Shown: positions 1 to 56,166, numbered from the stretch's first letter. The stretch: DNA of 64,000 nucleotides from Tubiluchus corallicola (GCA_030141605.1 JAQGDQ010000546.1:81217-145216); one strand, 5' to 3'. Notes: generated by a model not told the origin, from the letters alone. Made by a program: numbers and translations.

Positions 1-19144
<19,144 letters not shown>

Positions 19145-19619: not shown

Positions 19620-21140
19620 ATGATGATTAAACTTCAATGGATGATGTTTATAGTGTCTATCTAATTTTGATTTAAATGAATTTACAGATGTTACTGTTTT
19701 CACATCACAGGGCAATCTATTCCAGATCTCTGTCATCGCACAAGAAAAATAGTCGTATTTACCAGTTTTGTGTGCAGTTCTTCATTTATGAAGAATAGGG
19801 CCTGATCTTGCTGTGCGATGTACTTCTAATTTAACAGGACAATCATTATCACAGCTGTAAACTCTAGATACATATTTGTATGCATCAATTAGTTGGCCAC
19901 GTAAATGTCTAAAAGTTAATGTAGTTAAGCCTATTCGGTCTAACTGTCTTTCATATAACAAGTTCATTAATTCCGGTAACGTATTGAAACATATTGGACA
20001 GCTTCGACAGGTCCACTATATATGCTCTAGGACTATTACTTCCATACTCCACTTTTGATCGCACAAATGCCACACACAGAAGTTTAAAAGTTTGCAGATC
20101 TAGGTACTTGAAATTCCTCCTTATTAAAGCATTGTTTCGTTTGGCATTCTTTGTGATTTCAGCTATGTGATCTTTAAAATTTAGTTTATTATCAAGTAAT
20201 AATCCAAGGTCTTTCTCACAAGCACTAAAGTCCAATTGTGCCAGAATGCCACTTGCATCACACATTTTGTATTTATACTCACATCTTGCTCCCACAGATA
20301 CAACCTTACACTAGTTGGGATGGAACTGCATGCAATTTTCAACTGCCCAATCACAGAGCCCTTCTCAATCCAATTGAAGATCATTATAGCTGGTAAACGA
20401 ATCAGATTCAGACGAGATTTTGCTGTCGTCAGCAAAAAGACGAAGAGAGTTTCTCACACAAATAGGCAAGTCATTAATAAATATCACAAATAAACACGAA
20501 CCTAATACCGAGCTTCATGGTACACCACTAGTAATCAAGGACTCAGTCGATTTATAACCATCAACAAACGTACATTATCTTCTATTTTCTAAGAAGTTAA
20601 CTATCCACTGTAAAACTGAACTAGTTATACCATAGTTTTTAAGTTTCACAAACAGGAAGTGACGAGGTACAACATCAAATGTCTTTTTCAGGTCCAGTAA
20701 TATTATATCAAAAGGCTTATTAGCATCTTTTAACTCACACCATGCATTGTAACATTGTAGCAGCTGTGTAACCATTGTTTTACTCTTAACAAACCCATGT
20801 TGTTCTTCACAAATAATGTTGTATCTTATCAGATGGTTCATTATATGCTTCTGCATGATTTTTTCTGTCACCATATCAATTGTATTGAGTAAGCTAACTG
20901 GCCTGTCGTTCGATGGATCTGACTTGTCCCCTTTTTTATGAATGGAAGTAACCTGTGTCACTTTTCATTGTCCAGGTAACAGACAATCAGCAAAAGACTA
21001 ATCTGGTAAGGTGTATATAGGCTTGAAAGCACAATTCTATATTTATTTAAAATACGTGAATGGTAACTATCTGTAGCAGATTTGTTTACATTGAGATTTT
21101 ATAACTCATAAAGCACTTTTTCTTCAGTTTGGAAACATTG
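19620..21140 (-). mobile_element. Decayed CR1/L2-type LINE, reverse transcriptase region
   Basis: Broken frames: IHKKGDKSDPSNDRPVSLL, QHGFVKSK, LDLKKTFDVVP, ITSGVP, FADDSK (~20418-20437), EKDLGLLLDNKLNFKDHI, IWNRLP...NSFKSKLD; many stops and frameshifts. Confidence 0.9.
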
Positions 21141-23041: not shown

Positions 23042-24406
23042 ATGGATAACGCTGCAACTCAACCCACGTCTACTACCGAACGAAAGTACGGCAAGATAAT
23101 TATTACCTTAGAAAATTCAATTATACCAGAAGATAGATTAGATTCTACACCTTCCATGCAAGATGGTCTTGATAGAGAAGTCGAAACAGATTTGCGAATT
23201 TTGGGATGTGAACTTATCCAGTCGTCGGGTATTTTATTAAAGTTGCCCCAAGTGGCAATGGCAACCGCTCAGGTTTTGTTTCAGCGGTTTTATTATTCAA
23301 AGTCGTTCGTTAAACATCAAATGGAGCATTTGGCCATGGCTTGCATTAATTTAGCTTCTAAAATAGAAGAGGCGCCGAGAAGAATTCGAGATGTGATTAA
23401 TGTGTTTCACCACATTAAACAGATCATGGGACAGAAAAAGATACAACCACTTATTCTTGATCAAGGTTATGTAAATTTGAAGAACCAAGTGATTAAGGCA
23501 GAACGGCGTGTGTTAAAAGAATTGGGATTTTGTGTTCATGTTAAACATCCTCACAAAATTATAGTAACTTACTTGCAAGTACTGAAATGTGAGCGAAACA
23601 CGAAACTTATTCAAACTGCTTGGAATTATATGAACGATGGACTTCGAACTGATATATTTGTAAAATACGATCCGGAAACTATAGCATGCGCTTGCATATA
23701 TTTGGCAGCCAGGCAGCTGAAGGTAGTTCTTCCAACAAAGCCTCCGTGGTTTTCAATTTTTACTGATAATTCTGAAGAAGATATTCACAATATATGTCTG
23801 ACTATCCTTCGCCTTTACGCGAGACCGAAACCAAACTACGAAGATTTGGAGCGTAAAGTCTCCGAGATGCGCAGGATTTTGGGTGAAGCAAAACTAAAAG
23901 CAAAGGGTCAGAGTACCTCAGCAGCAGCCACTCCTAATCCGGGAGGTTTTTCTCCTGGGTCCAGAACCGGATCCCCATCGAAAGACGACGAAAAGAAAAA
24001 AGATGGAAACAAATCGAAAACCCGAGATGTATCAAATCAGAGAGATGTTAGTAATCATCACAAGAAAAAGCGAAGCCGCTCAAGAAGCCGACACAAAGCA
24101 TTGCGTCACAGCAGCTCACGAAGTCCGTCTCCTAAGAGAGACAAAAGAGAAAAAGTATTGCCACGGGGTTATCAGCACTTAGAAAAGGAGCGAAGGCGAG
24201 TGGAGGGCCGGAGCAGGCAAGACGAGCATCGCCCGCGAAAGAAGAAACGGTCACATAGTGTGAGCAGATCGAGAAGCAGGACACCAGAACGACGGTCGCA
24301 CAAAAAATACAAGGAGAAATCGCGACACCACAAGTCGCACTCTCCTTCACACGAATCCAGGCGACACAAGAATCGTAGCGAGTCACGTGACCATTATAAA
24401 CGCTAG
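23042..24406 (+). CDS. CCNL1: Cyclin L (CDK11 partner), intronless, 454 aa
   Basis: Uninterrupted ORF with cyclin L boxes ([84 protein letters not shown]) and a C-terminal RS-rich domain; AATAAA at 24673. Invertebrate co-orthologue of CCNL1/CCNL2. Confidence 0.97.
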
Positions 24407-34100: not shown

Positions 34101-36164
34101 GTTAAAATTTTGTACAATGGTATAGAGTCCATCAAACTGATTAATTTTGGATATGAAAATCATCCAATATGGCCATTCTCATGACCGCCAAATTGGTTTT
34201 AGCATATTACATAGGTCATGCCTTAGCTGTCAAAGCAGCTAAGATGACAGTACTGTTGTCTAAATATAGGTTTTCAAGGTCAAGCAATCCACGTCTGATG
34301 CTTAAACCACGACATACCTCATTTAGGGTCTAAAAACGGATGCCGAGATGAGCAATTATCCAAAACTAATCATATTGAATGGATTAGCCTTCTGCAAAGG
34401 TTTACAACTTTTAGGCAAAATGAGCAATTTTTTCATCATTTTGCAGAAGTAAATTATAAAAATTTGGCTATAATGGTTTGGGTTTTGAACAATTTTTATT
34501 TTGAAGGTTATGAAAGTTGTTGAAAGCAGCCAAAAGTATTTATTCTAATTTGCTTTAGAGGAATAGTCTGTATTTTTCATGTATTTGCACAGCCCCATTT
34601 TGTGTGCTAGACTATAGGAGTGATTCACGATGCAATCCATCAGTTGTGAACTACTAGAAAGCAGCAACTTTCTTTTTATAGCATATTCTTTCATAATTTG
34701 CAATTTTTACTCTAGGTGGAGTGATGCTCATTAGTATGGCTATTGTTATATCTGTCGGCTTGCTCAATTTAAAAAGACTGGAGTTGCAATCTGGCCGTAA
34801 TCAGTTTGTTTTAGGCTTTGCTCTGTTGCTACCTCTGTGTACCTCGTCGTGGTTACGTGAAAATCCAAATGCTATAAATACAGGTCAGTAACTGTACTGG
34901 GAAACGAGCAAACAAACTCCGTCTAGATCAGATTTTTGGGCAAGAGAATTTCTTGAAGTGCAAACAAATATTTTCCATATGCAAGACGTGTTGTGGTTCA
35001 GCCACATAAATTATTAAATCAAGTTTGCTAAAATGAAGTATTTATTATTTTACTTTTGGATTGTAAAATTCATAAGAAATATTTTGTCACCTAGCTTGGC
35101 AATTTCGCAGCCTGAAAAATTGTGAAAAGCTCTTGTGTTTTCCTTTGTTTCATTTCACAGCTGCGAGTTCATTTTTGGCATTGCCATAATTATTAAGAAT
35201 TGTGTGTAAGCTGAAAGCTTATTGGTTTAGTTATAAGTTGACTTACCAGAGGTATCATTTATTGGTGAGTAATTTTTTCTACAGGCACGTGTTGTAACAA
35301 ATTGATGTTAGAAGGTATTAAAAGCAGATTTGGTGATCGCTTTTGAGGCAAACTCACGTTTTTCGACATTTTGTTTTTATTATTGAGTTTAATAAAAAGT
35401 GAAGAAATTCAAAATAAAAAGAAAACTAGAGTTCAAATTGATGATATTTCTGCTTGGAATCATGTCGACGTACTGCATCTTCACTTTTGACAGTTGTGGT
35501 CTAGCCTCACGTTTTCAAGTGTTTGAAACTGTTTTGAAAAATCTTAGCTAATTGTTTCACCTATAATGTTACCTGACTACACAGAAAGCAAAACATCATA
35601 TCAGACCCCTGACTCTGTTAGTCTAGCTGAAATATATAAATCATTCTTTAAGATTTTGTTACACTAAGAAATGAGGGAGATTTGAGTTTTTTCTAATGCA
35701 TCCCAAAAAGAAGACCAAGCCTGTTTTATTTACAACTAGTAATCACGTGCTTGGCAATAGGTTTCGAGAGTATATTCGATTAATGTAATTAGAATACATT
35801 CTGGTTTATGTACTAATTTGTGTACTTAATTATTTGTATCAATCTGAAATGTTTTCTTGAAATTGACCTCTTCACAGGTGTTCCTGAAATAGACAATATT
35901 ATCAGCATCATTCTCAGCACGCCGATGTTTCTTGGTGCCATAGTAGGATGCTTCTTAGACAATATTCTACCTGCCACTCCTGAAGAACGAGGTCTTGTGC
36001 ACCAGAATTATAGCAGCTCTAAGAATGAACGTGAATGCGACGTTTATTCGTTTTCGTTTACGCACAAGTTAAGATCCATGAATTACAGGTGGTTACGGAA
36101 AGTTCCTGTTTCCTCACTGTTTCAGCATGAGTTTGATGACGACATTAGCTTGACCTCATTTTAG
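25103..36164 (+). CDS. SLC23/NAT (NCS2) nucleobase-ascorbate transporter family member, 12 exons
   Basis: Exons 25103-25131 (tentative), 25388-25499, 26629-26780, 28074-28174, 28821-28921, 29850-30031, 30875-30995, 31284-31440, 32517-32666, 33444-33653, 34716-34883, 35878-36164. Motifs: TM1 GLQH, FVGPLTVVPMISLLGL, PPSHAVNRG, NAT signature QNHGLISLTK, LPDPVIGG, FLDNILPATPEERGL. Confidence 0.92.
25746..26162. mobile_element. Tc1/mariner-like MITE in SLC23 intron 2
   Basis: Left end TA|caggatatactaaaagaaacagtg; reverse complement of right end TA|caggttgttccaaaagaaatggtg. Imperfect ~24 bp TIRs flanked by TA. Confidence 0.55.
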
Positions 36165-37679
36165 ACTGTGGCTGTTTATGTTACAACATTAAGACAGGTA
36201 AATGAAGTTTACATTTGTGATACATTAGATGTCTTGCTCACTGAGACTGATTGGTACTATGATTGGAGTATATATGGGAATTTCGCCATCATCGTTATTG
36301 TGTATGTGATACAATTATTTTTAATGATTCAGTGACTCAGGAAACATGACAGTATTGGATATTACAGCTTTGTCGCTCTATGACGACATGAGAGATATAT
36401 CTGCTGCAAGCCAGCAGGTTATAATAATAAATAATAATGTCGTTGTTTAATGAGTAGTAATGAAAAAGCCGTTTAAGAAATGCTTGTCTTGGATTCACTC
36501 ACCTGTGTTATCACTTTAAACTTATTATAGGGTGGATTTTCAAAATTTAATATTGAAACATGTGAAAATCTATATATTATCTTTGTGAAAGACAAACTTG
36601 TAAATAGTAGTGTGATCAGTATATTGAAATAATAGTTAGGGACTTAGAGTTTAATGTGGGTAATGTAGACAACGTCTTTTACAAAAACATAATTACAATT
36701 ATAAAACGTAAGTAATTTAATGCCTGGGTTTTGTTGTTAGTTTTGAAAATAATTTCCTGATTGATCGAATTTTGACCTACATTGTGCATGTTCACTGCTT
36801 TTGCCTTTTTTCAATATGTTCTTATGATTTAGATAAGAATGTGGACGAAAGTGAATGAGTCTTTCAAATGTTAGCTGGGCTATTGTTATGTGATAGCCGC
36901 TTGAAACTTGCTTTAAGTGCCAAAAAGGCACTGCTGATGCTTATACAGTATGGTAGCTGTATTTTCCGCTGCAGCAATTGTAAAATAGTTTCCTTTGTCA
37001 ATCATATTTGTGGTCGTTTTTTGTCTTATTATTTTTATGTTTATAATTGTGTATTTTGTGTCATGCCATCATGCAGCGTCTTCTGTAGAAAATTATCGAA
37101 AATCTGTGGGATCGCATATTTTTCTTATGTTACCATTTGAAGTACCAAGTAAATTATTCTTTTTCATACGTCTTTTTGAAAAATTAAGTCACTGACTGAC
37201 TGACTGACTGACTGACTGGCTGAACGAGAATGGCTATAGTTGTTACCTAATTGATGAAATTATTTTTTGATTTGTCTGGTTAACAGTATAAATTAGAAAC
37301 TAGATAATAACTGCTTGCCAGCAGAGCAAATATTGCATATCCAGCATGTCTTGTTAATACAATTAATGTGCAAGTTATATTGGCTCTACTTTTTATTAAA
37401 CTGAGCAAAACACAATTTTATGCAATTTTGTTATAATTGTTTTTACTATAAGCTCGTCATGCATTAATAATAATAATAATAATCAACAACAACACAACAA
37501 CAACAACAACAACAACATCCTGACAATCGTCAGTGTAGACGAAATATAAAAGGTAAAATCCTATGAATCAGTGCAACTGTCTGTGATGTGTTAAGTTACC
37601 AATGGCACCACTTCGAAAATGATTAGGATCTTTATTTTTGACCTTTAACATGTGACAAGTTTTGCAATATCAAGTCTTA

Positions 37680-38388
37680 AGGCCCGTTTTGACTACCGTT
37701 TTTCTTGCTGCTTTTAACGTGTTAATGTGAAAATTAACATCGCTCTCTATATCGCTCCAGTGTTTTCACTAGCAGCTTTCTCGCTGCGATTATCGCTACC
37801 TTTTTTATGGTCCGTGAAAACAGACACCACTGCATGATAGCTGCGTGTACGGTTGTACAAGTACACCATATACTTGCTTCTTAATTCATTGATAGATAAT
37901 ACATTGCCTACAATTATGTATGTTATTATTATTATTTTCCCACTCACACGCCTTGTTTTTCTTGGCATGTTGAATCAACAATCTGCAGTGAACTTCAGTT
38001 CACACTCATCTTCGCATCAAAAGCAAGTCATCAATACGTCATGCAATGGCACTTGTACTAGCTAGATTAAAGCAGTGACGTTATTTACTAGCCTACACCG
38101 TAATGAGTACAGGATTGTTTGATGGCTTGCGCATTACGCAACATGCACAAAAATGCTGCTATATAGCCATTTTCGCGGGCGTTTTTGTGGCGTAACATGC
38201 AAGAGCTTTTTTCTCGATCCGATTAACGTTTCCACGGGTTTTTTGTCGCTCCAGCATGGAGATGCCAAGAAAAAAGCGTTTTCTCGCCAGGCTGCCTGTG
38301 TTTTTTGCAAGAGCTTTTCTTCCTTGATCGATAAACGTTTTGCAACGATTTTGCCAACAGCGAGAAAAACGTTAGTCAAAACGGGCCT
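37680..38388. mobile_element. PIF/Harbinger (Tourist-like) non-autonomous element
   Basis: Perfect 16-bp TIR aggcccgttttgacta (37680-37695 and 38373-38388) flanked by TTA on both sides (37677-37679, 38389-38391). Confidence 0.8.
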
Positions 38389-40919
38389 TTAGGCTAAGTA
38401 TTCTTTGTCTATATTGAACTAAACATCACTGACCAGAAAAATCAAGCTGTGATGTAAAATTGAGTCTAATTAGTAGGTGATCTCCGCTTAAACTTAATTA
38501 ACGTTGCAGTTAGTTTTACCTTGATCTAATTAAGGTGCCGGAAATGATGCTGGGCATTTTTGTCTTTGAGAACCTGTCAAGGTTACATGCCAAAAAAGCG
38601 CAAAATGGTTTTGATAGAGGTTAACTAATGAACTGTATCAACTGACACACTATAATATCTGTAGTGCTGCTTGTTTCATTGAATGTGACAATTTGTATTG
38701 AGACATAGATCAGACGGCCTGTTTTTCTACCTATCTGCCTTTGTCTGTCCACCCAACCATCCCTCCATCTATCTGTCCAGTAGTTAATAGAAGTAGCTAG
38801 GATCTCACTCAAAATATCAGCTGTCAAATCTTGTTGGTTCTAAAAATCTTACTGGTTCTAGCAGAATCACCGCAGTAATAAGGTTTTGGCGGTTTCGGGA
38901 ACTGCTACTAATTTCACTGTAAATTCACGGTGTGAAATAAAGTAAAGCAAGTTGTAGTAACGTAATTTACAAGAGATTCAGCCACACTGGAAGTAAATTA
39001 AGTACATGTAGTTGCTATGCAAATTTAATAAATGAAGATGAAGAAAGTAAAACTTCCGAGTACTAATAATCAGTGGACTCGTGCTATTAAAAATACATTA
39101 ATCGTTTAAGTCACCTAATGTATAAAACTTAAATGTAGCAAATACAAAGGGAAGCTTATTTAGACAACTTTTAAACGAGTTAAGAAAGTCTCCATTTCAA
39201 ATGCAGACTGCCAAAAATGTGCTTAAGACAAGTAAACACAGCCAGTAAAAACTAGACTCTGCTATGAGTGCTTGAGTGATTTGATGTACAATGTATATAT
39301 ATATAATACAACTGCCTAACTAATTGTGCTGCGTTACGTTTCAGGCGGGATGACATGTACTGATAGCTAATTAGTTTTTTTAGTTCTTGTATGTCTTAGT
39401 TTCCTGAACAGACTGTGGATGAACCTGAATTTGAACATAAACTATACTATTACATAGAGTCATAGACCGATGGTTCACTCCCTGGTACACGCCTCCGTGC
39501 TGAAGTACTTGGCCGTAATAATAATTCGTGCTGTATATGATCTGCAACAGTCATGATACAGTTTACAAAAGATGCAAGCAAAGCATTCATAAAGCGAAGA
39601 CGGCTTCTGGTCATAGTAATCACCAGTATAATAGCTCTAAACAATGGCTTCGTCTTCCCAACGAACATCCTCTTCCGCAAGCGCTCAAATTACACGTTTT
39701 CGTTATTAACTTGGTAATTCCTGCTGGAGGCTATTAACAATGTGCGCTGAGCGTATATTACGCAATACTATGCGGTATAGAATGCTTTTTGTCCAAGTAC
39801 AGACTTTGTGGAGACAGCTGTATGATCTTAATAATGACATTTGAACGTCGTCAACACTTGCTGTTTTCTAAAGCAAAGTCAAGAAATATTTAGAAACGTT
39901 GTCTTATTAATGTGTGTGTAAATAGGTATTTTATTTTTTGGCACGAACGAAGTTCAATGTTGCTGTAAGTCCCAATTAGGCCTTTATTTATTGTCTTAAT
40001 TTGTGGTTGTTATAATTTTTAGCCGATTGAATGTCCCTTGTGGACTATTGTTTCTTATATGTAAGGAAATCGACGTAAAATAAACTTACTCAAAAGACTT
40101 AAACATAAAGTGTAAGATAAACAAAAAATTATATAAAACAATTGCAAATCTACATAAGCAACAGAGATCTTTTAATCAATATATTTCATGTCTTTGTTCA
40201 ATGGTAAATTTCAGCCTTGGTCGACTGTATGGTAGCATACCGCAAAGACTGGCACTGAGCTGTTGTTGCTGTTCGTCGCCGTTGCCGTCATCGTCGTGTT
40301 GTTGTTGTTGTTGTTGTTTATTAACCTTGATCAAGCACTTCAAGGAATACTAGGTACTGTTACAAAAATATGTACAAAAACTTACAAGATCTTTGAAGAT
40401 CTATGGAATTTTTTATCGGTATACTAATACTTCCTGCATGTCAATTAAAGACTATATTAACCACATTAACCTATAATAATTTGGAGTTTAATTATACTTA
40501 AAACAAGTTACTAGAGTTCAATATGAAATTTTTTGCTGTTGATAAAATGAAATCCCTTCTACACCCTTACGGCACACTCATTATGACGCATTTTCTTTCC
40601 CATACGCATCAGTGTCAGAAAAGAAAGCAAAGTTTGTTCTAATCTTACGTCTCTTTGGTCTACTTTTAGACAGACTTAGTCAAACATTGATAGACATCAG
40701 AAGATTGTGAATCGATAACTTTTACCACCTGTGCTTTAAGGTGTTCCACTTCACATATAAGCGGCTTCTATCTAACCATCATAAACCAAAAAACTCTCAC
40801 GACATGGTTTTGTATCAGAAGCTTTTACCTAACCTGGTTGTGCAATGTACATCAAAAGTTTTCACCACACATTGTTGAATGTCAGTAGCTTCTACTTTTC
40901 ATTGTTGCGCATTATTAGT

Positions 40920-43919
40920 TTACATGTCACATGGTTGTGTATCAGCAGCTTTTATCACAAGTGGTTTTGCTAGTTCCATCTCAATAGGCTGAATGGCAGT
41001 AAACTGAATTTCACATGGTTGTTCGTCTTTTTCAACGAATGCAGCGGCAACAGGAAATGACGGGACGTTCACATATACAAGTTTTTCAGGGCTTTTTTGT
41101 ATTGGTAACTCTAAAACAACCTTCGGTTCAGATGACTGTACTGCGATTTTCTCTAGCTCACTTAGTACCTGTAGCAAGTCCACCCACTCTTTTGATACTT
41201 TAGGCACCTTAAATGGAACTTGCCTGTCATGGAGCTCGTGGATGTCTAACATCATCAAAGGTCGTTTTGTTGGAATGTCAGCATTTTTAATATGAAGACT
41301 TATAGCATCGGCGCATTTTTCCCTCAAGTACAAAAGTGGGAAACGTGGCTCAAAGAACTTCATGTTCAAGCCGCATAGGATATTTACATCTTTCATGTAA
41401 CAGTGAGGCATGAAACCAGTTTTACAGCACTTCGAAATGTACTTGAAGATTTTAAGTATCTGTTCTTTGACGTTGTGTTCATTCCATGTTAGTGCTTTTG
41501 AATTGGCAACACACTCCAAAAATGCTGTCTTCAATGTATACGAATCTAGAAAGTCTCCGGGATAAGTCTGAGTATGTGAAAACAATTTATATACATTTAT
41601 CCCAGGATACCTTGCTAAGGGGAGAACAAGTTCGTTTTTATAGTATTCACTTAACTTATCTTCCAAGTATGATACGGTAATTCTGGAGTCAACATTGTAC
41701 AGTTGCTCCTTGGTCAATGTCTTTGCTAATATCATTATGTCCTTGTGTTGTTGAGATAATGCTTTGATATGTTCCTTCTCGGCAAAGCTAGTACTCACGA
41801 TCCATATGATGTCGCGTTGGTTTTCTTCAATTTCAGGATCGTTGGCAGGTTTTGGTACTACATGATAATATTTGACGTCTGGGTATTTTCTGCTGATTCC
41901 TAGGGGTTTACCACTAACTTTTAATGCTGGCGAAATGTCCACAGCTATCTTTAGTGGCTGATTAGTTAATGGACTACGGTAGAGCAGGGTGAACGTGGTA
42001 CAGACCTTGTTCCATTCTAATATTGCACCATCAGTAGATATTGGCTGTAGCTGTAAATCTGGTTCATTGAAAACAGTAAACATGGAGTCACACAGCAAAT
42101 CAACAAATTTGTCTTTCAGTTTGATCTGAAGATAGCCGTCTCTCGTATAATTTTTGAAGCTGTTATCTTTCATTCTGATTTTTACATATCCTGGTCGGTT
42201 TGCTTCTACCATAACTTTTTCAGACATTCGTGTTAAAACGAAGAAATAGTCAAATTCATCTGGCGACCAGCACTTGATGCCACATGAACTGCTTCCAACT
42301 AGAACATGATCGGTTTCATAATTTGGTGACCGTTTGCTCATTGTTCTGCAAACTTTTTCCATTAATTTATTTACGGCTTCTCTAATTTCATTGAATTCCT
42401 CTAAGCTACGTAACTGTCCAATTGGAAATAGATCAGTTATACCACCGTCATTTTTATCTGACAGAGATTTAATTTTATCAAATTTGTCTGCTTCGTGAAT
42501 CATTTCATAAGTATGTGGCACATCTTTAATTCCAGAAAGGTATTGCTGTTCATATAGAAACCCAATAATCTTCCGCAAAGGCTTGGTGCCACTTGTAATG
42601 TCTCCAAAGTTACCTTGTTCCACTATAAGATCCAGAGCTGTCCTGCCTTCACTGTTAACAACATTTATGTTAATGCCGTGACTAATCAATTCTTTCACAA
42701 TTTCAATGTTAAATGTATGATACAAACCTACGCAGTGCAGTGCAGTGTTGCCATTGCAGTCTGTTTGGTTTACGTTTTGTGCTTTTTTCAATAACAATTT
42801 GAGAATATCAATATTATTATGTTCAACTGCACCATGAAGTGGCCTGTACAGGTGTATGCAACTTTGTGCATCATGATGTTCCTCGACTGGAGTGTCATTG
42901 TCATCAAATTCTATCTTTGCGTCATATTGTAGTAGAAGTTTTACTACTTCAACATGAGTGTTATGAATAGCAATATGAAGAGGCGTCCACCAATGGCAGC
43001 TTTTAGCATTCATGTCTGCCCCTTTTTCCACCAGTAACCTTACCACATCTGCATGGCCCTTACCTGCAGCTGCATGCAGAGGAGTACGTCTGTCATAGTC
43101 TCTAGATTCTAGCCGTGCACCTCTTTCCAACAGCAGTTTCGCAACTTCTTTAAGACCTCTTTCAGCTGCAGTGTGTAAAGGTGTCTGCCCAAAACAATTT
43201 TTCGATTCTAAGTCTGCATCTAGTTCCAAGAATATTTCAACTTCTTTAGCATCTCCTCGTCTTGCTGCATAATGGAGTGGCGTATAACCATCATTGTCAT
43301 TTTCAATATTCACTTTCGCTTCATAAGCTAACAGCATTTTAACAATGGTCGAATGCCCCCTATGTGCTGCCGTGCATAAGGGTGTACGTCCAAAGTTGTT
43401 TTTCTGTTCTGTTTGTGCTCCCCGCCCGAGCAACAACTTAACAACTTCAACGTGACCATGCTCTGCTGCTTGGTGCAGAGGCGTCCATTCAGGAATACCT
43501 ATAGCATCTATTTCTGCTCCTGCTTCTAACAGTGTTTCAGCAACTGTATCGTGTCCATTTGATGCTGCTCTGTTTAAAGGTGTTTCTCCACTTTGATCCC
43601 TGGAATCTAATTGAGCTCCATTTTCCAGCAACAATTTAACCATTTCACAATTTCCCAGAGATGCAGCTGTGTGCAGAGGCGTTTCTCCAAACACGTGCTC
43701 TGTGACTTCTAACTGTGCTCCTTTCTCTATTAGCATTTTAACAATTTCAACACGTCCACTTGAAACGGCAGCATGGAGCAGTGTTGCTCCGAAATCGTCT
43801 TTGTTATTCACATCTGTTCCAGCATCCACAAGCGCTTTAACTTTATTAAAATCTTCTTTCTGAACTGCAGAGTGTAACAATGTATTTTGCTTAGATGTTT
43901 TTGTTAGACTTTTTCCCAT
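40920..43919 (-). CDS. Ankyrin-repeat / cGAS-like (Mab-21, cGLR) nucleotidyltransferase fusion protein, ~1000 aa
   Basis: 12-13 ankyrin repeats (GxTPLHxAA...L) at ~43890-42620, then VLVGSSSCGIKCWSPDEFDY (GS-x11-E-F-D), IAVDISPAL, WIVSTSFAEKEHI, LDSYTLKTAFLE and MPHCYMKDVNIL, in cGAS/Mab-21 motif order. First in-exon ATG at 43919; splice acceptor at 43952-43953; possible in-frame micro-exon at 44326-44317. Confidence 0.9.
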   Translation of the reverse strand: MGKSLTKTSKQNTLLHSAVQKEDFNKVKALVDAGTDVNNKDDFGATLLHAAVSSGRVEIVKMLIEKGAQLEVTEHVFGETPLHTAASLGNCEMVKLLLENGAQLDSRDQSGETPLNRAASNGHDTVAETLLEAGAEIDAIGIPEWTPLHQAAEHGHVEVVKLLLGRGAQTEQKNNFGRTPLCTAAHRGHSTIVKMLLAYEAKVNIENDNDGYTPLHYAARRGDAKEVEIFLELDADLESKNCFGQTPLHTAAERGLKEVAKLLLERGARLESRDYDRRTPLHAAAGKGHADVVRLLVEKGADMNAKSCHWWTPLHIAIHNTHVEVVKLLLQYDAKIEFDDNDTPVEEHHDAQSCIHLYRPLHGAVEHNNIDILKLLLKKAQNVNQTDCNGNTALHCVGLYHTFNIEIVKELISHGININVVNSEGRTALDLIVEQGNFGDITSGTKPLRKIIGFLYEQQYLSGIKDVPHTYEMIHEADKFDKIKSLSDKNDGGITDLFPIGQLRSLEEFNEIREAVNKLMEKVCRTMSKRSPNYETDHVLVGSSSCGIKCWSPDEFDYFFVLTRMSEKVMVEANRPGYVKIRMKDNSFKNYTRDGYLQIKLKDKFVDLLCDSMFTVFNEPDLQLQPISTDGAILEWNKVCTTFTLLYRSPLTNQPLKIAVDISPALKVSGKPLGISRKYPDVKYYHVVPKPANDPEIEENQRDIIWIVSTSFAEKEHIKALSQQHKDIMILAKTLTKEQLYNVDSRITVSYLEDKLSEYYKNELVLPLARYPGINVYKLFSHTQTYPGDFLDSYTLKTAFLECVANSKALTWNEHNVKEQILKIFKYISKCCKTGFMPHCYMKDVNILCGLNMKFFEPRFPLLYLREKCADAISLHIKNADIPTKRPLMMLDIHELHDRQVPFKVPKVSKEWVDLLQVLSELEKIAVQSSEPKVVLELPIQKSPEKLVYVNVPSFPVAAAFVEKDEQPCEIQFTAIQPIEMELAKPLVIKAADTQPCDM

Positions 43920-46208
43920 ATTGACTTGTAGTAACAAAATTAGACTTCCTCCTAAAAATAAATCAATTTTAGTGTCTAAATGACTAACACAGCGAATTGG
44001 AAATAATTGCGGCAACTTTTTATAAACTTACATGAACAAAGTTGCAGTTGTTCAGCAAAGGCAAATATAGCGCACGTTACACATATTTTGATAACAATTA
44101 CTGGAATATGTGGTCGGCAGATGAACAAATTTTTACTAAAGATTGTTTCTTTCAACAAGAAATAAACAACAAGAAGTTATGGTGTTCAAAAACTCGCTAA
44201 TTTTTTATCAATATTTCGAATTATCTCATCTTCAGGATTATAATTATAATACTGAAAAGACAAGTAAAAACTTTTCTTATAAAAATTATTTGGAATGTAT
44301 CAAGTAAATGGCTTACTCGCCATCATTTAAAGAATTTTCACATCTGCAATAAAATATAATCTGCTTATATACGCAGTCCACATAATGCGTTGCTACGTAT
44401 GCCGAACAGGTATGATATGTAACTTAATTTACTGAAAGCAAATGATAATATAACACACTTGTGCTTGCTAGACTATACTTTACCGAAACGTAAAAATGAA
44501 ATGGACTGTTAGACTTTAACAAAGCGAGTGCTTCGGTTCATTTCTTTGTTTTCTATGTAAAGTGTGTGCATAATTCTCTCATTCTGGCCATCACTATATT
44601 ATTGTTATCACTTATCTTCAGTAAATTAAGTAATAATTTCCAACTGTTCACCAAATGTTGCAACTCATATATTGACTGTATATATAATCAGATTATTATA
44701 CGTTACATATAATATTATATATTATATGTAAATATTCTCGAGCCTGATGAAAAGCAAGGCAATTGCAAATAAATTGCAAGCGAAACCTTGCAAATAAATT
44801 CATATAATTATGATTGTCTGAGCAGCATCATCATCATATATATATATATATATATATACATATATATATGAAAAAGAAGCGACAGACAATAGAATAGAAT
44901 AGAACAGAATAAGGTACAACTCAATTTAATATAACACAATATACAAAGGTAATAAAAGTAATGTTCCTTAGTTAATTAAAATTTAATATCAACGAACTTT
45001 TTAACAACATGACTTGGTCATTTCCAGTTGGAAGAAACAATTAGTAAAGCTTATTTTGTTAATGCTAATAAACTGGATACTGTACTATTGTATGTTTTGT
45101 TGTGTTGTTTGGTTTAAAAAGTCCTATATTGTCTGTAGAACTATTTAACTTTTGAAGCAATTTAGTTTATCTTACAGAAAGGCGGTAATTGAAGGTTAAT
45201 TGTGTGAAGAATTATTCTAGGTTAAGTAAACTAGCGCTAATGCTTGGGACTGTTGAATTTGAAGCCATGGGTGTGTCTCGTGGTCACTACATAATTTTCA
45301 TCTTTAAAGGATTTGTAATACACTAGGCAGAATGGTGATGGTGAACTAATAGGAACTATTTAAGTTTTAAGGGAAATTTTTACAAATAAATTAGTAGCAG
45401 GATAAAGCACAAGTTACAGAAAAGACAGAGAATCAAACGTTAGTCTACATATATCACACGAATATAAAAGATTACAAGCTATATATTTATCTTACCACTA
45501 CGCCGCTCATTATATACGTCCCAGATCTAATAAAAATTGTACTGTGGCAGGTAATCATTTAGTGCTAGACTACCTGTTTATCCACACTGTTCAAAATCAA
45601 ACTTGTTTAGTTTACAGACTATTCTACAGCCCGAAGCTAAAAGTTTGCTCTCATTGGCTGAGGTATTTGTAATGTCTAGTTGGTGACGTTAAACATCCTG
45701 TTCTTTAATCACTCTGAACAGGAATACTGTATAATACTTTGACTCAAACGTTAAACCAGTTGAATAGACTGCTTAATTACCAACACGGCCTAGAAAAACA
45801 GTAATGCAAAGACGACGAAAAGACAACGTTATCTCTATCAAAAGTTACGAATGCAAAATTAATAATTTAAAAAAATAATGTGTCAACCAATTAGTGTAAA
45901 TGTTAGATGTAGCTTTATCATATAATGCAATTTGTGATTTTACACGTGAAAGTAATTCTAGAAGTAAAATATAATTTAATATGCATTATTTTGTGTAATA
46001 TGTGTGATGTAATGTAATGGCATTCAGTGACAGAGCAGCTACCCAATGCGGGTAGTTATGGCAGGATTGGAGCCTGTCTTTTTACCAAGGTGATCTTCTA
46101 AGCTAAGATGAGGCACTAAATCAATAGAGGTGACTCAGTCATTTTTGGACTGTATGGTAGATAAGAACAGATGAATCAGTCCAAAACTTGTATTGAACCA
46201 GCGTTACC

Positions 46209-46210
<2 letters not shown>

Positions 46211-46294
<84 letters not shown>
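46211..46294 (+). repeat. (TAA)n microsatellite
   Basis: About 28 perfect units. Confidence 0.97.
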
Positions 46295-46296
<2 letters not shown>

Positions 46297-47034
46297 TTAT
46301 TTGGAAATACAAATACAATATCTAGAAACACTGAGAAAAATAGACATTAATAATAATGATTTAATGTTGATATGACAGCATGCATATAATAAATGGCAAG
46401 AACCAGAAGTAAAACTTGTTAGATGCTTGCACCATTGTAAACACGTCCAATAGCAATTGAAAAAAGAAGAAAAAACGAGGGTTTTTGGCAATTTTAAAAA
46501 AAAAAGTTGTGCAAAGCAAGATAGAAGTGATGGATAAAAGAATGTTCAAAAGGATAGGAAGAGTGGCTTGTGAAGATTCAGCTCATGAGATGGCGAAGTA
46601 CAGTACTCTGGATTCTACTCAAAAAGAACACGAGGTTTCACTGTTGCGTCACACAGGAACAATAGGTAGTTACCGAGACTAATTTATATAAGAAGCAAAC
46701 GGTAACATCCTTTTAGTGACCAAGCTTAGCTATGTTAAGCGCGTATACGTTATATGAAACCTTGAACATAAAGTTAGCAGAGTTTATGTCACCGAGCAGT
46801 ACCACATTTCAACTTTCATTTTCTCAAACACATGGCAAATGCTCATCTAAGCCTTCTGCAGGTTAAAAAATCTCTGATGTTTTCATATGTTCACTAAAGG
46901 GCCAGAAGTGGTGCTGAGAAACCAGTGACATAGCCGTGTCTAATTTTTTGCTGGTCTAACAGTTGTGTTTAACCGTCTTCTTTTATTTTAGAATTCTGCT
47001 TGCCCGACTGTTAGTTCTAGATGTAATAGTCGTT

Positions 47035-47196
47035 TGATGATAATGTTGATGATGACGATAGACTGACGACGATGATGTTGATGACGATCATGATGACGAT
47101 GATGATGGAGATGATGATGATGATGGAGATGATGATTATGATGATGGTGGTGATGATTATGATGATGATGATGCTAAGGATGATGATGATGATTGA
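47035..47196 (+). repeat. Degenerate (GAT)n tract
   Basis: GAT/GAC/GTT triplet run; explains the spurious poly-Ile ORF. Confidence 0.9.
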
Positions 47197-47573
47197 CATT
47201 ATCACTAGCTGAGCAATTTGTGGGATTTTCTTTATTAATTGTCATTATTCTTGGCAGTAAAGATTAAATATTTCTGCGGGTCGATCAGCATTGATTACAA
47301 TAAAGTACTCGTGCCTTCTTTGTTTATAAATGTTAGAGCATTTATTTCTATTTTATTATTACAATTCAGGTAATGTAATTTAAAACGAATTGTTATTTTA
47401 TGCTAATAAAATAATCTATCTGTCTAACAAAATGATTTCGGACACCAAGTCATAACGCAAGTGATCTGATAGTATGCTTAAATTACAATGCCGATTCAGA
47501 GTGTTCACATCAAGTTACGCTGCCATTTTTATTATCGGTTGATAACATGCATCTGTCTTGAGTGTCGGAACCA

Positions 47574-48593
47574 TTACCTGTACCCATTCTCAGTGTGCGT
47601 TGCTTGTAGCAACGGAGTAATCTGCTGCCGCTTCCAGAAGCATATAATACTCATGAGATTCAGTTTGATTCGTTCATCTTCAGCACCGTAGCAGATTGGA
47701 TTAATCGCAGCTTTCATATTGCTCACAGCTAGCAGTATAATGAGCAGACTCGCATAAACACAGTCGCAGATGATGTGAGATAAATAAGCGAAAAAGAACA
47801 GTACCCAAGTGACCAGAAATACTAGAATCAGAGCGAATATGGCGTGTGCCATCTGCTTGTCGTGCTTCAGCCATTGATCGGCGTCATCACTGACATTACT
47901 CTCGTCAAAAGCCCTCTGCCTGGCGCGTAAGTAAACGTAAATCTTCCACATTAGCACAAATAAAGCAACAATGAGTGACGATTGTTCAATGAGCAGTGTC
48001 GTCAAAGAAAACGCCATATTGGATAAAAAACTTGGCTGGCAATTTGCCAGGTCAGATATTTCGATATATTTCCATGCAGTAATGAAAGGTACGTAGAAGC
48101 AAGCGATCAACCATGAAACAGATATCTTTTGCAGAGCTCTGTATAACCTCTCTTTATCTCTGACGTCATCGTTGGGGTGAGCGGCCATCACAGAGCGGTC
48201 GTGAACCAGCAGAAAAAGAGCAAAATGTGACCCCAAAACGGCCACTGAAGCCAGACACATCCAAGCCTCACATGCGCTGATGAAGCGCCCCCCGTATTCG
48301 GCAAACAGAAAGAGGGCGTATCCTGTGGGAAGCACCACCAATGACATTATCAAATCAGAGATGGCCAAATTCAAAGTGTATAATTTATGCTGTGCTTTCC
48401 TGAGCTTTGAATCCGTGATATAGATAACAATGAAGACAATGTTCATGAAACCACCCGCTAGGATTATGAGCGCAAGCAGTACGCCAATCACAACAACTTC
48501 TGTTATTTTATAAGATGGCGGAGTAGGCGTTAAATTCGTCATAGCAAGTACACCTGCGCTCGTCTGATTCTCCATGTAATTAGTCGTTGACAT
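47574..48593 (-). CDS. Single-exon rhodopsin-like (class A) orphan GPCR, 339 aa
   Basis: Seven hydrophobic segments; TM1 Asn (GFMN), TM2 LNLAISD, TM3 Cys...HDRS, TM4 Trp, ECL2 Cys, TM7 NPICY; N-terminal sequons NQT and NLT. Confidence 0.92.
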   Translation of the reverse strand: MSTTNYMENQTSAGVLAMTNLTPTPPSYKITEVVVIGVLLALIILAGGFMNIVFIVIYITDSKLRKAQHKLYTLNLAISDLIMSLVVLPTGYALFLFAEYGGRFISACEAWMCLASVAVLGSHFALFLLVHDRSVMAAHPNDDVRDKERLYRALQKISVSWLIACFYVPFITAWKYIEISDLANCQPSFLSNMAFSLTTLLIEQSSLIVALFVLMWKIYVYLRARQRAFDESNVSDDADQWLKHDKQMAHAIFALILVFLVTWVLFFFAYLSHIICDCVYASLLIILLAVSNMKAAINPICYGAEDERIKLNLMSIICFWKRQQITPLLQATHTENGYR

Positions 48594-49251
48594 TTCTAGT
48601 TATATGTTACTCTATAGCTTTGTTAAATCATGAAGCTCTTTAATGCACGCTGAGCAGAACACTTCTTGGCTGATATTTTTCCAAAACCTTTTTTTCTAAA
48701 TTGCGCTAGTCTGATTTCATACAACTGTGACTTGAAAATGTCAACTCAAATTGCTCATCTGTTTTGTTCACCTGTATAAACAACAACAACAGCAACAACT
48801 ATTAGTTGTACGTCACGTATACAAGACAGATAACAAGCCCATCACAGCTACCGTATAGCAGCAAAAACATTTATTTTTAGATAATCTCCTGTGGCTGGTA
48901 GAAGACGGAAAGGTCTTCACTGTCTAAGAGAAATGTATTAATTAGACAGACAGAGAACAATATGGAAAAAAGATTTCAACAGCTGTTTTTGGGTGACCGG
49001 AATTTAGCTAACTTAGCTAAATGTCAGTCCTGTTTTTCATGCTTATTTTTTAGTTTTTTCCTTGAACTCTCAGTTTTAACTTTAATCACTAATCACATTC
49101 AAGATTTCTCATAATAAGACCTCGTTTTTAACTATTACTTACATTATTTCTAATCACCAAATAGTTTTCTATTCACTCAAGCAATTTTCCCTTAAAAACT
49201 GTAATAAATAAACAAAATTATTCTCGTCTTCTTTAGCCCAAACCATTGCCG

Positions 49252-49292
<41 letters not shown>

Positions 49293-50020
49293 TTTTGGGT
49301 CTATAAATTTTTGTTGCGTTTTTTATTTTTTGTTGTTCCCTCCAAAAATAATGGATTTTCATCATTTGTTTTTCTTCAGTTTTTCTCGCTTACAGACTTT
49401 TTATTGTTGTCATCAAAAAACGTTTCTTTCTGTGACAGTGATATATTGATAATGGCCATGTTATTTTTATTTGCAGTTACCGCTCATCAAACACTCATTT
49501 TAGTTCAAGCTAATGGTTTATTATGTTGCATACAAATCTTCTGATGTCCCCCAAATTGTGTTCTCTTGCTTAGATTATGTATTTAACTAATTTTATTATT
49601 TTTTCGGTTTTTGTTTATTGCCAATTAATTATTATTGTTTTATTATGTTTTTTCTTTATCGTTTTTGCTGTCCTACATCATCAATTTTTTACTATTGAAT
49701 ATTGTTCATTTTTATTAAACCTGCCATTTGTATGAAAGGACCGGAGACTAAAGACTAGGTGATCCTTTGGTCTCTCACTTTCCTACATAATTGCATTCAT
49801 TCAGTGCAATGCTTAACAAACATTATTGTTGTAAATGACACTTACCATTCATTTACTAACCAGGCCTAACGTTATCTATTCGCCTATCTGCTCATTTAAT
49901 TCGCACAATAAGTGACAATGAGTGAGCATTGTTTTGTCAGTTACCGTAGGATGGTTGATTAGCTGGTAAGTCAGTCGATCAGTCAGCACGTCGGTCAGTT
50001 GGATGGTAAAAAACTAATCA

Positions 50021-53944: not shown

Positions 53945-54291
53945 TTTTAAAATCTAAGGTTTCTTCTGTAACGCCATTTTCTCTCGTTTGTGTCAGGCCT
54001 TTCCCTTGTATTGTACAGCTAAACGTAGAAAAGTCGGTTAAACGATACTAAACATAGAAAATCTCTGTGATTCTCAGCTAAACATTTTAAAATCTCTAGG
54101 AAGCCATTTAGCTGTCAAAATGCAATATATCTCTTCAACGTACAAGGTGTGTGTGAACATCTTTCTTTGTGCATTTCTCACCTTGTTGTTGTGCTGCCTT
54201 CATTTTTCCTCTCTCCGCTGTCGCCTTTAACGTCGTAGTTGACCAGTGAAGGTTATACTTCGGGGGTGGGCGTAACAGCGATGTAGTGATC

Positions 54292-56166
54292 ATGGCCACC
54301 CTAAATCAAATCTGGTTATTATACACTGTTACTGTGACTTTAATGTTAGTGCTGCTAATGAACAGTTTTCTACAGCTCGGAAACTCAAGAAATGGAAACA
54401 TTCGTTCGCGCAGATTTGAGAATCGTCTACAAAATGGTGACTGTGAGAAATTCGGCAAACCAGTCGAAACAAAAGTCCTAGACGTTGTGACAAAAGATGT
54501 CGTTCGTTACCAAAAAATCATCAACTATCTGCCATCGACGAAGAAGTTTCCTTCAGAAAGCTCACTGACTTTGGCAACCCAGTGCTCTTGGCATTACGTC
54601 CACCACTTGATGAACTTACTGGAGAAGCATAATGGCCCAATATCAGCAGCTCTGTACGTGCCCGGCGACAGCTTCAACTTCCTCGTGAACGCCATCATGC
54701 AGATGAGGAAGTGCTTTCCAAAGTTCAGCGAGCAAGTGACAATTTCGTTGTTTTTCCCTACAGACGCCGCTCCATGTATCACTAGCAGAGAGTTTAAACA
54801 AGTGCCAAAGGTGAACTGTAGCAGTCTTTTGTCACCTCTGACTGGAGGTCCCGATCTCTCGAAATATGGTGGTTATCCAATCAACGTTGGTCGGAATGCC
54901 GCTCGCCTAGCAGTTAGCTCAGAGTATGTCCTCCTGCTTGACGTGGAGTTAGTGCCAACACCTAACCTGACAGAAAAATTCTTTGAAATGATGGACAAAA
55001 AGCGAGATTTGATTGTGGATAATGCTGTGTACGTACTTCCGGTCTTTGAGGTGGCGGAAACGGGAGAAGCCCCAACAGACAAACGGGGATTAGTGCGGCT
55101 TCTACGCCAGGAAAAAGCAGTTCCGTTTCACTACGTGAGTGCTTTTTAAAGTAGTCCTTTCATGTTTCTATGTTCTCTGCTATTTTTGCTTTTATATTTC
55201 GCAATAAATTTTTGCATTCCTCCCTCTTCTCTCTCTTTCTCTTTTTCTTTCTCTTTTCCTTCCCTTTCCCTGTCTCCTCTCTCTTGATTTTTCAGTTTCG
55301 CTTTTACTTTCTTCCCATCTCTTGGCAGACATCTCCCCTTTTATCTCCATCACACACGCTCATACACGCCCACACGCTCAGCTTTTCGTTTCTTTCACGG
55401 TGTTTTGAAACTCAGACTTCCTAAATTCGTGTTTACCTAATTGTGCTTTTTCCTTGGCAGCAGTATTAATAGCAATATTACAGGCTTACAGTCGTCGCTT
55501 GTATTTTACAGTCTTCGTGCGACTATTGTCACACTATTCCATACCTGGGACTGTGGATCAATGCCAATCCATCCCGCGATTTGAGAGAGTTCTTTATGAA
55601 TAAGTGGGTTCCACCTGCCTGGGAACCGGTATACATAGGTAACATTTTAACACTAAGTCTTGTATTAGTGGTATCAGTAGCAGCAGCAACAAATGATGGT
55701 GATTGCGAACATGACGACGACAATGTTAGTGAACAGTCATAGTGATGATGACAATGCAGATGTCAGTGTCGATGTTGGTGTTGAACTAATGCTTCTTTCT
55801 CTTGCAGGAGATAACACAGAACCTATGCACGACGAGCGGTTCAGAGGTTACGGGCGCAACAAAATACAGCAGGTGTTTGAAATGTGTCTGCAAGATTACT
55901 CCTTTCATATTCTCGACAACGCGTTTCTTGTGCATAAAGGCACATCGGATAAATCAAAGAAAACAAAAAACGAAACAATGATACAGACGAATTTGGAAAT
56001 GTATCGTCACTATCTGAATGATATACTAGGGAAGTATTCTAACAGGCCTGATTTGCATGCCTATTGTCTACACGATAATCCAGAGGCCAGATCTCTAACT
56101 GTTGGTTATTTCGCTACTAAATACAACGTATTGAACGCTTTGATTGGCGTAGTACCGATGTTTTAA
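54292..56166 (+). CDS. B4GAT1: GT49 family glycosyltransferase, beta-1,4-glucuronyltransferase 1-like type II membrane protein, 3 exons
   Basis: Exons 54292-55134, 55512-55638, 55808-56166 with consistent phases; N-terminal TM; LTLATQCS, GPISAALY, YPINVGRNAAR, LLDVELVP, VYVLPVFEV, WEPVYIG, HDERFRGYGRNKIQQ, LDNAFLVHKG. Confidence 0.88.

What the first reader, a model, noticed from the sequence alone, without database searches (positions are those of the whole stretch)
40920..43919. Ankyrin-array sensor fused to an apparently catalytically intact cGAS-like receptor (ANK-cGLR)
Seen: 12-13 ankyrin repeats followed by a domain with GSSSCGIKCWSPDEFD (42296-42249), IAVDISPAL (Asp at 41939-41937), WIVSTSFAEKEHI, DSYTLKTAFLE and PHCYMKDVNIL. 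Established: human cGAS, from recall, has GSYYEHVKISAPNEFD, ISVDITLAL, SFSHIEKEIL, SSYHVKTAFFH and NYFIPEFNLF. Spacing matches and all three metal-binding acidic residues are present; such enzymes make cyclic dinucleotides that signal through STING. Inference: the ankyrin solenoid may replace nucleic-acid sensing with protein-ligand sensing or autoinhibition, giving an NLR-like sensor-enzyme. Automated annotation would probably label it only an ankyrin protein. Repeat-domain cGLR fusions exist in some invertebrates, but I know of no ligand or product assigned to this architecture.
Basis: partly seen in the sequence, partly recalled or inferred. Interest (0 to 1): 0.9.

Follow-up and report, generated by a model that had tools for sequence, protein, structure and literature searches.

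The report
Ankyrin-fused cGAS-like enzyme, rebuilt pocket
This gene joins 13 ankyrin repeats to a cGAS-like enzyme domain that keeps its three catalytic residues, a layout already catalogued in invertebrates, but it belongs to an untested subgroup whose changed nucleotide pocket likely makes an immune signal other than the usual cGAMP, likely switched on through the repeats.

Summary
One 999-codon ORF (43919-40920, minus strand) encodes 13 ankyrin repeats and a Mab-21/cGLR domain. Pfam passes both Mab-21 cut-offs, and the model (pLDDT 86) matches cGAS at Z 29. G542-S543, E555, D557 and D661 are present. The layout is not new: Li et al. 2023 name ANK-cGLRs and list at least 87, including two Priapulus caudatus members of this gene's own clade. 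What I add is a clade signature. Its 11 tree rows (support 100/100) all carry ankyrins. They keep the triad but lose the Arg364-equivalent (Arg in 1 of 12, against 35 of 44 outside) and the activation-loop acid (0 of 11, against 42 of 44). All 12 full-length members carry WNKVC in a pocket-lining loop. This protein and its closest homologue also share a myristoylation-type start. Best reading: an active, ankyrin-gated second-messenger synthase, likely not making 2'3'-cGAMP. Activity, ligand, expression and a STING partner are untested. The scan's notes showed no earlier ANK-cGLR finding.

The parts
40920..43919 (-). Single open reading frame, 999 aa, ANK-cGLR (P0001); no intron needed in the coding part
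   Evidence: no indel in 9 contigs of run X1
43899..43919 (-). N-terminus MGKSLTK, fits the MGxxxS/T N-myristoylation signature (predicted, untested)
   Evidence: the closest homologue P0002 has MGASVTK at its second Met; signature from PMC4910163 passages
42600..43895 (-). 13 ankyrin repeats, residues about 9-440; repeats 30-64% identical to each other in protein, so not a recent tandem duplication
   Evidence: pLDDT mostly 70-95 in the full-length model
42534..42599 (-). Capping helix after the last ankyrin repeat, conserved in all 12 full-length clade members
   Evidence: alignment; helix 445-457
42423..42533 (-). Poorly conserved linker (29% identity to P0002)
41760..42422 (-). cGLR nucleotidyltransferase lobe, residues about 500-720
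   Evidence: Pfam PF03281 547-716; model and fold searches
42249..42296 (-). GS activation loop (G542, S543), Cys546 at the usually acidic position, K549, catalytic E555 and D557
42000..42014 (-). Clade signature WNKVC (636-640), in the loop that is Gly290-Ser-Pro-Ala in mouse cGAS
   Evidence: loop before strand 178-185 of the model; Gly290 lines the pocket per PMC5622107
41937..41939 (-). Third catalytic acid, D661
41799..41801 (-). I707, at the position of mouse cGAS Arg364 (human Arg376)
   Evidence: motif register against Table S3 rows
41265..41759 (-). C-terminal helical bundle with K733 and S793-Y794-x-x-K797
   Evidence: Pfam PF20266 791-852; invariant in the clade
40923..41264 (-). 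Acidic C-terminal tail of about 114 aa (pI 4.9), largely absent from homologues, low model confidence

Best explanation
The gene encodes 13 ankyrin repeats fused to a cGAS-like receptor domain with its catalytic triad intact; it is likely an active enzyme that is likely switched on when the repeats bind a ligand, likely a protein, and that likely makes a cyclic dinucleotide other than 2'3'-cGAMP, which would signal through STING. Shown: ORF, domains, fold, triad, clade and pocket signature. Inferred: (1) catalysis, about 0.75; (2) gating through the ankyrin array, coupled by the conserved last repeats and capping helix, about 0.5; (3) a product other than 2'3'-cGAMP, with invariant N637/K638 perhaps standing in for the lost Arg, about 0.55; (4) membrane anchoring by N-myristoylation in this sub-branch, about 0.45; (5) STING as receptor, by family precedent.
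For: Fold: pLDDT 86, pTM 0.87; top Foldseek hits cGAS and Cv-cGLR1, E about 1e-15; VIA Z 29.0, rmsd 3.1 over 320 residues. G542, S543, K549, E555, D557, D661 are kept in 11 of 11 clade rows that cover them, and K690, K733, S793, Y794, K797 in 12 of 12, at 29-50% identity. All 11 rows of the 100/100 clade carry ankyrins, 2-15 repeats by my own profile, which undercounts. The capping helix is conserved. Domain pI across the clade runs from 5.3 to 8.6, while Li et al. report pI above 8.5 for nucleic-acid-sensing cGLRs, so a basic surface is not a clade trait. Arg at the Arg364 position: 1 of 12 in the clade, 35 of 44 outside (4 gaps). Among five active enzymes in Table S3 read by eye, the four with 2'3' products have Arg or Lys there and Sp-cGLR1, which makes 3'3'-cUA, has Cys. 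Priapulus caudatus, home of the named relatives, has 5 STING genes.
Against: No biochemistry exists for this clade: Table S3 has no Priapulus row and no ankyrin motif in its visible text. Mutating Arg364 leaves mouse cGAS unresponsive (PMC5622107 passage), so its loss could weaken catalysis. This protein's own domain pI, 8.58, is at the nucleic-acid-sensor threshold. The link between that position and the product rests on five enzymes, only one without a basic residue. The myristoylation signature is in 2 of 12 clade members, and in P0002 it lies at Met21 of the predicted protein. The host's STING genes could not be searched.
Confidence: 0.5

Rival explanations
1. An ordinary nucleic-acid-sensing cGLR: the enzyme domain binds dsRNA or dsDNA itself, and the ankyrin repeats only localise it or recruit partners.
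For: Domain pI 8.58; nine of 15 active cGLRs in Li et al. respond to dsDNA or dsRNA; three other clade members have pI above 8.2.
Against: The closest homologue P0002 has pI 5.29 and 6 of 11 clade rows are below 7; no zinc ribbon; ankyrins are kept in 11 of 11 clade rows.
Confidence: 0.27
2. A nucleotidyltransferase that no longer makes cyclic dinucleotides: the ankyrins recruit a protein substrate and the rebuilt acceptor pocket transfers a nucleotide to it, or makes a linear product.
For: The metal and triphosphate-side residues are invariant while three pocket features change together across the clade; Trp, Asn and Lys replace a small-residue loop.
Against: Sp-cGLR1 lacks the Arg and still makes a cyclic dinucleotide, and active Pd-cGLR lacks the activation-loop acid. 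The caged two-lobe fold is complete. I recall no protein-modifying animal cGLR (recalled, not searched).
Confidence: 0.12
3. A pseudo-enzyme scaffold like MAB21L1/2, with the domain used for binding only.
For: Loss of the Arg364-equivalent and of the activation-loop acid; Arg364 is needed in mouse cGAS.
Against: The triad and five other catalytic-side residues are invariant over 29-50% identity; Li et al. accepted two clade members as having complete active sites.
Confidence: 0.08
4. A chance or artefactual fusion (mis-assembly, recent chimera or dead retrocopy).
For: The coding part has no intron; no listed contig spans the ankyrin-enzyme junction.
Against: The same fusion, with the same capping helix, occurs in 11 other full-length proteins; the frame is open for 999 codons.
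Confidence: 0.03

Closest known systems
Priapulus caudatus ANK-cGLRs XP_014668761.1 (P0005) and XP_014666123.1 (same locus name and length as P0064), listed in Li et al. 2023 Table S1
   Same: Same clade (100/100 for P0005), ankyrins N-terminal to the cGLR domain, same capping helix, triad, WNKVC and loss of the Arg364-equivalent.
   Different: Only about 31% identical in the enzyme domain; Asn rather than Cys at the activation-loop position; fewer repeats; no MGxxxS/T start; no acidic 114-aa tail. None has been assayed.
ANK-cGLR architecture class of Li et al. 2023 (bioRxiv 10.1101/2023.02.22.529553; Fig. 1C, S2A, 4C, Table S2)
   Same: Ankyrin repeats fused to a cGLR with a predicted complete active site; at least 87 distinct accessions in the first 2 of 41 parts of Table S2.
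   Different: Most ANK-bearing cGLRs among my hits fall outside this clade and, like other outside rows, mostly keep the Arg and the acid. WNKVC occurs in only 2 rows of Table S1's visible text, both Priapulus.
Sp-cGLR1 (Stylophora pistillata, PDB 8GJY), dsRNA-activated, makes 3'3'-cUA
   Same: Best sequence hit in the PDB (E 1e-5); non-basic residue at the Arg364 position.
   Different: Single domain, keeps the activation-loop Glu and a small-residue loop, no ankyrins.
Vertebrate cGAS (mouse 4K9B, human 7FTR)
   Same: Same fold (Z 28.9-29.0), triad, and residues equivalent to mouse K350, S366, S368, E371, Y421.
   Different: No zinc ribbon, no Arg364, 19-21% identity, ankyrin array in place of the cGAS N-terminus.

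Membership tests
cGLR (Li et al. 2023 criteria) | G[S/G] activation loop and [E/D]h[E/D]...[E/D] catalytic triad | tested here: met
   G542-S543, E555-F-D557, V-D661-I; criteria
cGLR (Li et al. 2023 criteria) | Literal pattern details: h[QT] before GS, and X50-90 between the second and third acid | tested here: inconclusive
   This protein has L-V before GS and a 103-residue spacer, outside the literal pattern; but two clade members that the authors curated as cGLRs have L-V and spacers of 99 and 96, so the literal pattern is not the boundary they applied
cGLR (Li et al. 2023 criteria) | Homology across both the NTase core and the C-terminal helix bundle | tested here: met
   PF03281 and PF20266 both above the curated cut-off
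cGLR (Li et al. 2023 criteria) | AlphaFold model matches known cGLR/CD-NTase structures | tested here: met
   pLDDT 86; Foldseek E 2e-15; VIA Z 29.0 to cGAS, 28.6 to Cv-cGLR1
cGLR (function) | Ligand-dependent synthesis of a cyclic dinucleotide | not testable with these tools
   needs biochemistry
cGLR (function) | STING receptor in the same genome | not testable with these tools
   no genome is held; Priapulus caudatus has 5 STING genes
ANK-cGLR architecture class | Ankyrin repeats and a cGLR domain in one polypeptide | tested here: met
Vertebrate-type cGAS (dsDNA sensor making 2'3'-cGAMP) | Zinc ribbon between the E371 helix and the following Lys helix | tested here: not met
   E714 to K733 spans 18 residues with no Cys; the mouse and human rows of Table S3 carry the His/Cys insert there. 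That the ribbon defines cGAS is recalled.
Vertebrate-type cGAS (dsDNA sensor making 2'3'-cGAMP) | Base-stacking Arg364 (mouse) / Arg376 (human) | tested here: not met
   I707; role from PMC5622107 and PMC10855445 passages
MAB21L-type pseudo-enzymes | Lack of a predicted functional active site | tested here: not met
   triad complete; definition from the Fig. 1A legend
   no such Pfam hit at E up to 1; the analogy concerns only the repeat-sensor logic. The defining feature is recalled.

The most novel reading that the evidence does not exclude
A so far unassayed ANK-cGLR clade has rebuilt its acceptor pocket (WNKVC gained; Arg364-equivalent and activation-loop acid lost) and works as a protein-sensing, in this branch membrane-anchored, receptor-enzyme that makes a nucleotide signal not yet known in animals, or transfers nucleotides to proteins caught by its ankyrin array. 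It would be the first cGLR switched on through a variable repeat sensor rather than by nucleic acid.
Probability: 0.2. Interest if true: 0.85.

Novelty: new variant of a known kind. Interest (0 to 1): 0.48.

Why it matters
All cGLR activators named in Li et al. are dsDNA or dsRNA, and the authors argue that non-nucleic-acid ligands exist but identify none. Repeat-fused cGLRs are the obvious place to look, and I found none assayed with its repeats. This gene is one more such candidate among at least 87 listed, so the layout alone is modest news. The clade-wide pocket signature is the added value: it predicts a different product and names the residues to mutate (C546, N637, K638, I707, G2). The clade is also undercounted: 5 named Priapulus caudatus members came up here against 2 in the published table.

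Tried and rejected
Full-length model from a 3-row alignment: ankyrins folded, the enzyme domain did not (pLDDT under 50); not used for the fold claim. Ankyrin-to-enzyme docking: the complex tool gave no verdict, so an autoinhibitory contact is open. Expression: no RNA holder listed, which says nothing either way; run X2 covers none of the ORF. Host lineage by cyclin L: best hits 65-73% identical across hemichordates, arthropods, echinoderms, molluscs and vertebrates, none close, and only proteins of 497 aa or more were searched; the lineage is not pinned. PDB search with alignment A2 returned only ankyrin proteins in the 60 rows shown and was useless for the enzyme. My first ankyrin labels on the tree undercounted and were redone (31 of 56 rows, as Pfam found). 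No second cGLR or ankyrin gene in the window; no genome for paralogue or STING searches. Flanking repeats in 36000-50000 are mostly microsatellites and give no sign of a mobile element around the gene. A paper search for the role of the activation-loop Glu gave nothing relevant. The published Cell version of Li et al. is not held. Six ankyrin-bearing coral, anemone or bivalve accessions of Table S2 were not found in the screen table S3; the other 81 were not cross-checked by accession. No CaaX box: the last Cys is third from the end.

Full report
1. Observation. The minus-strand ORF 43919-40920 is open for 999 codons from ATG to stop. Pfam finds 12 ankyrin stretches, Mab-21 at 547-716 (33.1 bits) and Mab-21_C at 791-852 (33.9 bits), both above the curated cut-off of 24.1. 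Thirteen repeats line up in register. Nine contigs of run X1 lie on the region at 99% identity or better, with no indel and two substitutions, one silent and one E136D. X1 may be the source sample, so this checks the letters and is not independent support.

2. Setting. Neighbours are SMC-hinge exons, a reverse-transcriptase fragment, an intronless cyclin L, a rhodopsin-family GPCR and a glycosyltransferase 49 gene. Cyclin L is 65-73% identical to many bilaterian proteins and close to none. The window is therefore animal DNA of a lineage that I could not pin. No second cGLR or ankyrin gene lies in the window and no genome is held.

3. Fold. A model of residues 464-890 from a 56-row alignment reached pLDDT 86.2 and pTM 0.87. 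Foldseek ranks cGAS and Cv-cGLR1 first (E 2e-15 to 6e-15). VIA-align gives Z 29.0, rmsd 3.1 over 320 residues to human cGAS and Z 28.6 to Cv-cGLR1. E555 and D557 fall in one strand and D661 in another. Their convergence follows from the fold match; I could not measure it.

4. Relatives. The exhaustive search gave 62 proteins at E up to 0.001, 10 of them at 1e-30 or better. All 10 carry N-terminal ankyrins. Four are named, all Priapulus caudatus, and six are unnamed Logan proteins; a fifth Priapulus protein came. Alignment A2 holds the query and 55 of the 62 hits (left out: P0012, P0014, P0019, P0038, P0053, P0057, P0059). Four short rows were dropped for the tree. In the 52-row tree the query sits in an 11-row clade with support 100/100, all ankyrin-bearing, sister to P0002. 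Pfam finds ankyrins in 31 of the 56 rows of A2, most of them outside this clade.

5. What is in print. Li et al. 2023 (bioRxiv 10.1101/2023.02.22.529553; I read passages and sections 5-7) name ANK-cGLR as a domain architecture and show coral examples. In the PMC copy's supplements I read parts 1-2 of 41 of Table S2, which hold 87 distinct ankyrin-bearing accessions, part 1 of 8 of Table S3, and searched S1, S3 and S5. XP_014668761.1, which is P0005, is in S1 and S2. WNKVC occurs in 2 rows of S1, both Priapulus. S3, the screen, has no Priapulus row and no ankyrin motif. Cells are cut at 400 characters, so these searches can miss text. The figure file and the published Cell version were not available; they may give the share of ANK-cGLRs and discuss product-determining residues. 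Searches for cGLR + ankyrin (7 papers), Mab-21 + ankyrin (42 papers, 30 listed), cGAS-like receptor + ankyrin repeat + invertebrate (3 papers) and priapulid + STING + cGAS (0 papers) showed, from their listings, no functional study of an ANK-cGLR and no description of this clade. Most subscription journals are not searched.

6. The clade signature. Kept: G542, S543, K549, E555, D557, D661 in 11 of 11 clade rows that cover them; K690, K733, S793, Y794, K797 in 12 of 12; E714 in 11 of 12. Changed: position 546 is Glu or Asp in 42 of 44 outside rows and in 0 of 11 clade rows (Cys 4, Asn 6, Ser 1). Position 707 is Arg in 35 of 44 outside rows (4 gaps) and in 1 of 12 clade rows. WNKVC is present in 12 of 12 full-length members, and no outside row has Trp at 636. 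I mapped these to mouse cGAS by motif register against the Table S3 row, counted by hand from a recalled start of 147; the count reproduces Ala233, Phe234, Gly290, Lys350 and Arg364 as named in PMC5622107 (passages). I707 is then Arg364, K690 is Lys350, and N637-C640 replace the loop that starts at Gly290. That paper places Gly290 and Lys350 at the pocket and says Arg364 stacks on substrates and is needed for the response. Kin share residues, so 12 sequences are one evolutionary event, not 12.

7. Does the signature kill the enzyme? Probably not. Sp-cGLR1 has Cys at the Arg364 position and makes 3'3'-cUA; Pd-cGLR has His at the activation-loop position and is active. Of five active enzymes read, the four with 2'3' products have Arg or Lys there. 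This is a thin basis, but it points to a product other than 2'3'-cGAMP.

8. Role of the ankyrins. Repeat number runs from 2 to 15 across the clade, while a capping helix after the last repeat is conserved in all 12. Against P0002, the last repeats with the cap (52%) are as conserved as the enzyme (53%), the middle repeats less so (37%), but the first three also reach 53%, and repeat-to-repeat matches are ambiguous. Domain pI ranges from 5.3 to 8.6, so the basic surface that Li et al. link to nucleic-acid sensing is not a clade trait; this protein, at 8.58, is on the threshold. A variable sensor coupled to a fixed enzyme is the simplest reading, and it is inference. Whether the array touches the enzyme remains open.

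9. N-terminus. The protein starts MGKSLTK, which fits the MGxxxS/T myristoylation signature (PMC4910163 passages). P0002 has MGASVTK at Met21, just before the two sequences diverge. The window has no in-frame ATG upstream before a stop, and acceptor-like AG sites lie 5-65 bases before the ATG, which fits a non-coding upstream exon. The signature starts 3 of 179 stored proteins, this one included, and is absent from the other 10 clade members. It is a prediction.

10. Verdict. A real ANK-cGLR with an intact triad. It passes the published cGLR criteria as their authors applied them and fails those of vertebrate cGAS, MAB21L pseudo-enzymes and NLRs. The undescribed, clade-wide pocket change and the untested repeat sensor make it a variant worth an assay. 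Interest 0.48.

Noticed in passing
window 23042-24406 (+): Cyclin L gene with an intact, intronless coding frame including the RS-rich tail; animal cyclin L genes are usually multi-exon (recalled), so it may be a retrocopy or an intron-loss case.
   Followed up: partly
window about 3071-12860 (-): Short exons of an SMC protein, SMC1-like by eye; hinge domain confirmed at 5536-5931.
   Followed up: partly
window 19951-20964 (-): Broken non-LTR reverse-transcriptase fragments (RVT_1, E 1e-12).
   Followed up: no
window 47574-48599 (-): Intronless rhodopsin-family GPCR next to the ANK-cGLR on the same strand.
   Followed up: no
window 54250-56166 (+): Two exons of a glycosyltransferase 49 (dystroglycan-type) gene.
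   Followed up: no
window about 46300-46700: High-copy dispersed repeat: contig depth 180-310 against about 5-10 around it in run X1.
   Followed up: no
window 37666-37710 and 38358-38402: 45-nt inverted arms, 84% complementary, 647 nt apart, possibly a small non-autonomous transposon.
   Followed up: no
proteins P0006, P0007, P0010: Three Priapulus caudatus ANK-cGLRs with intact triads that are not among the two counted by Li et al.; P0006 and P0010 get no Mab-21 Pfam hit at E 0.001.
   Followed up: partly
protein P0014: Ankyrin protein with a degenerate copy of this clade's domain: GS and the first two acids lost, WKNSC in place of WNKVC; a likely pseudo-enzyme or fragment.
   Followed up: no
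protein P0012: 2255-aa protein with two ANK-cGLR units and a MYND finger.
   Followed up: no
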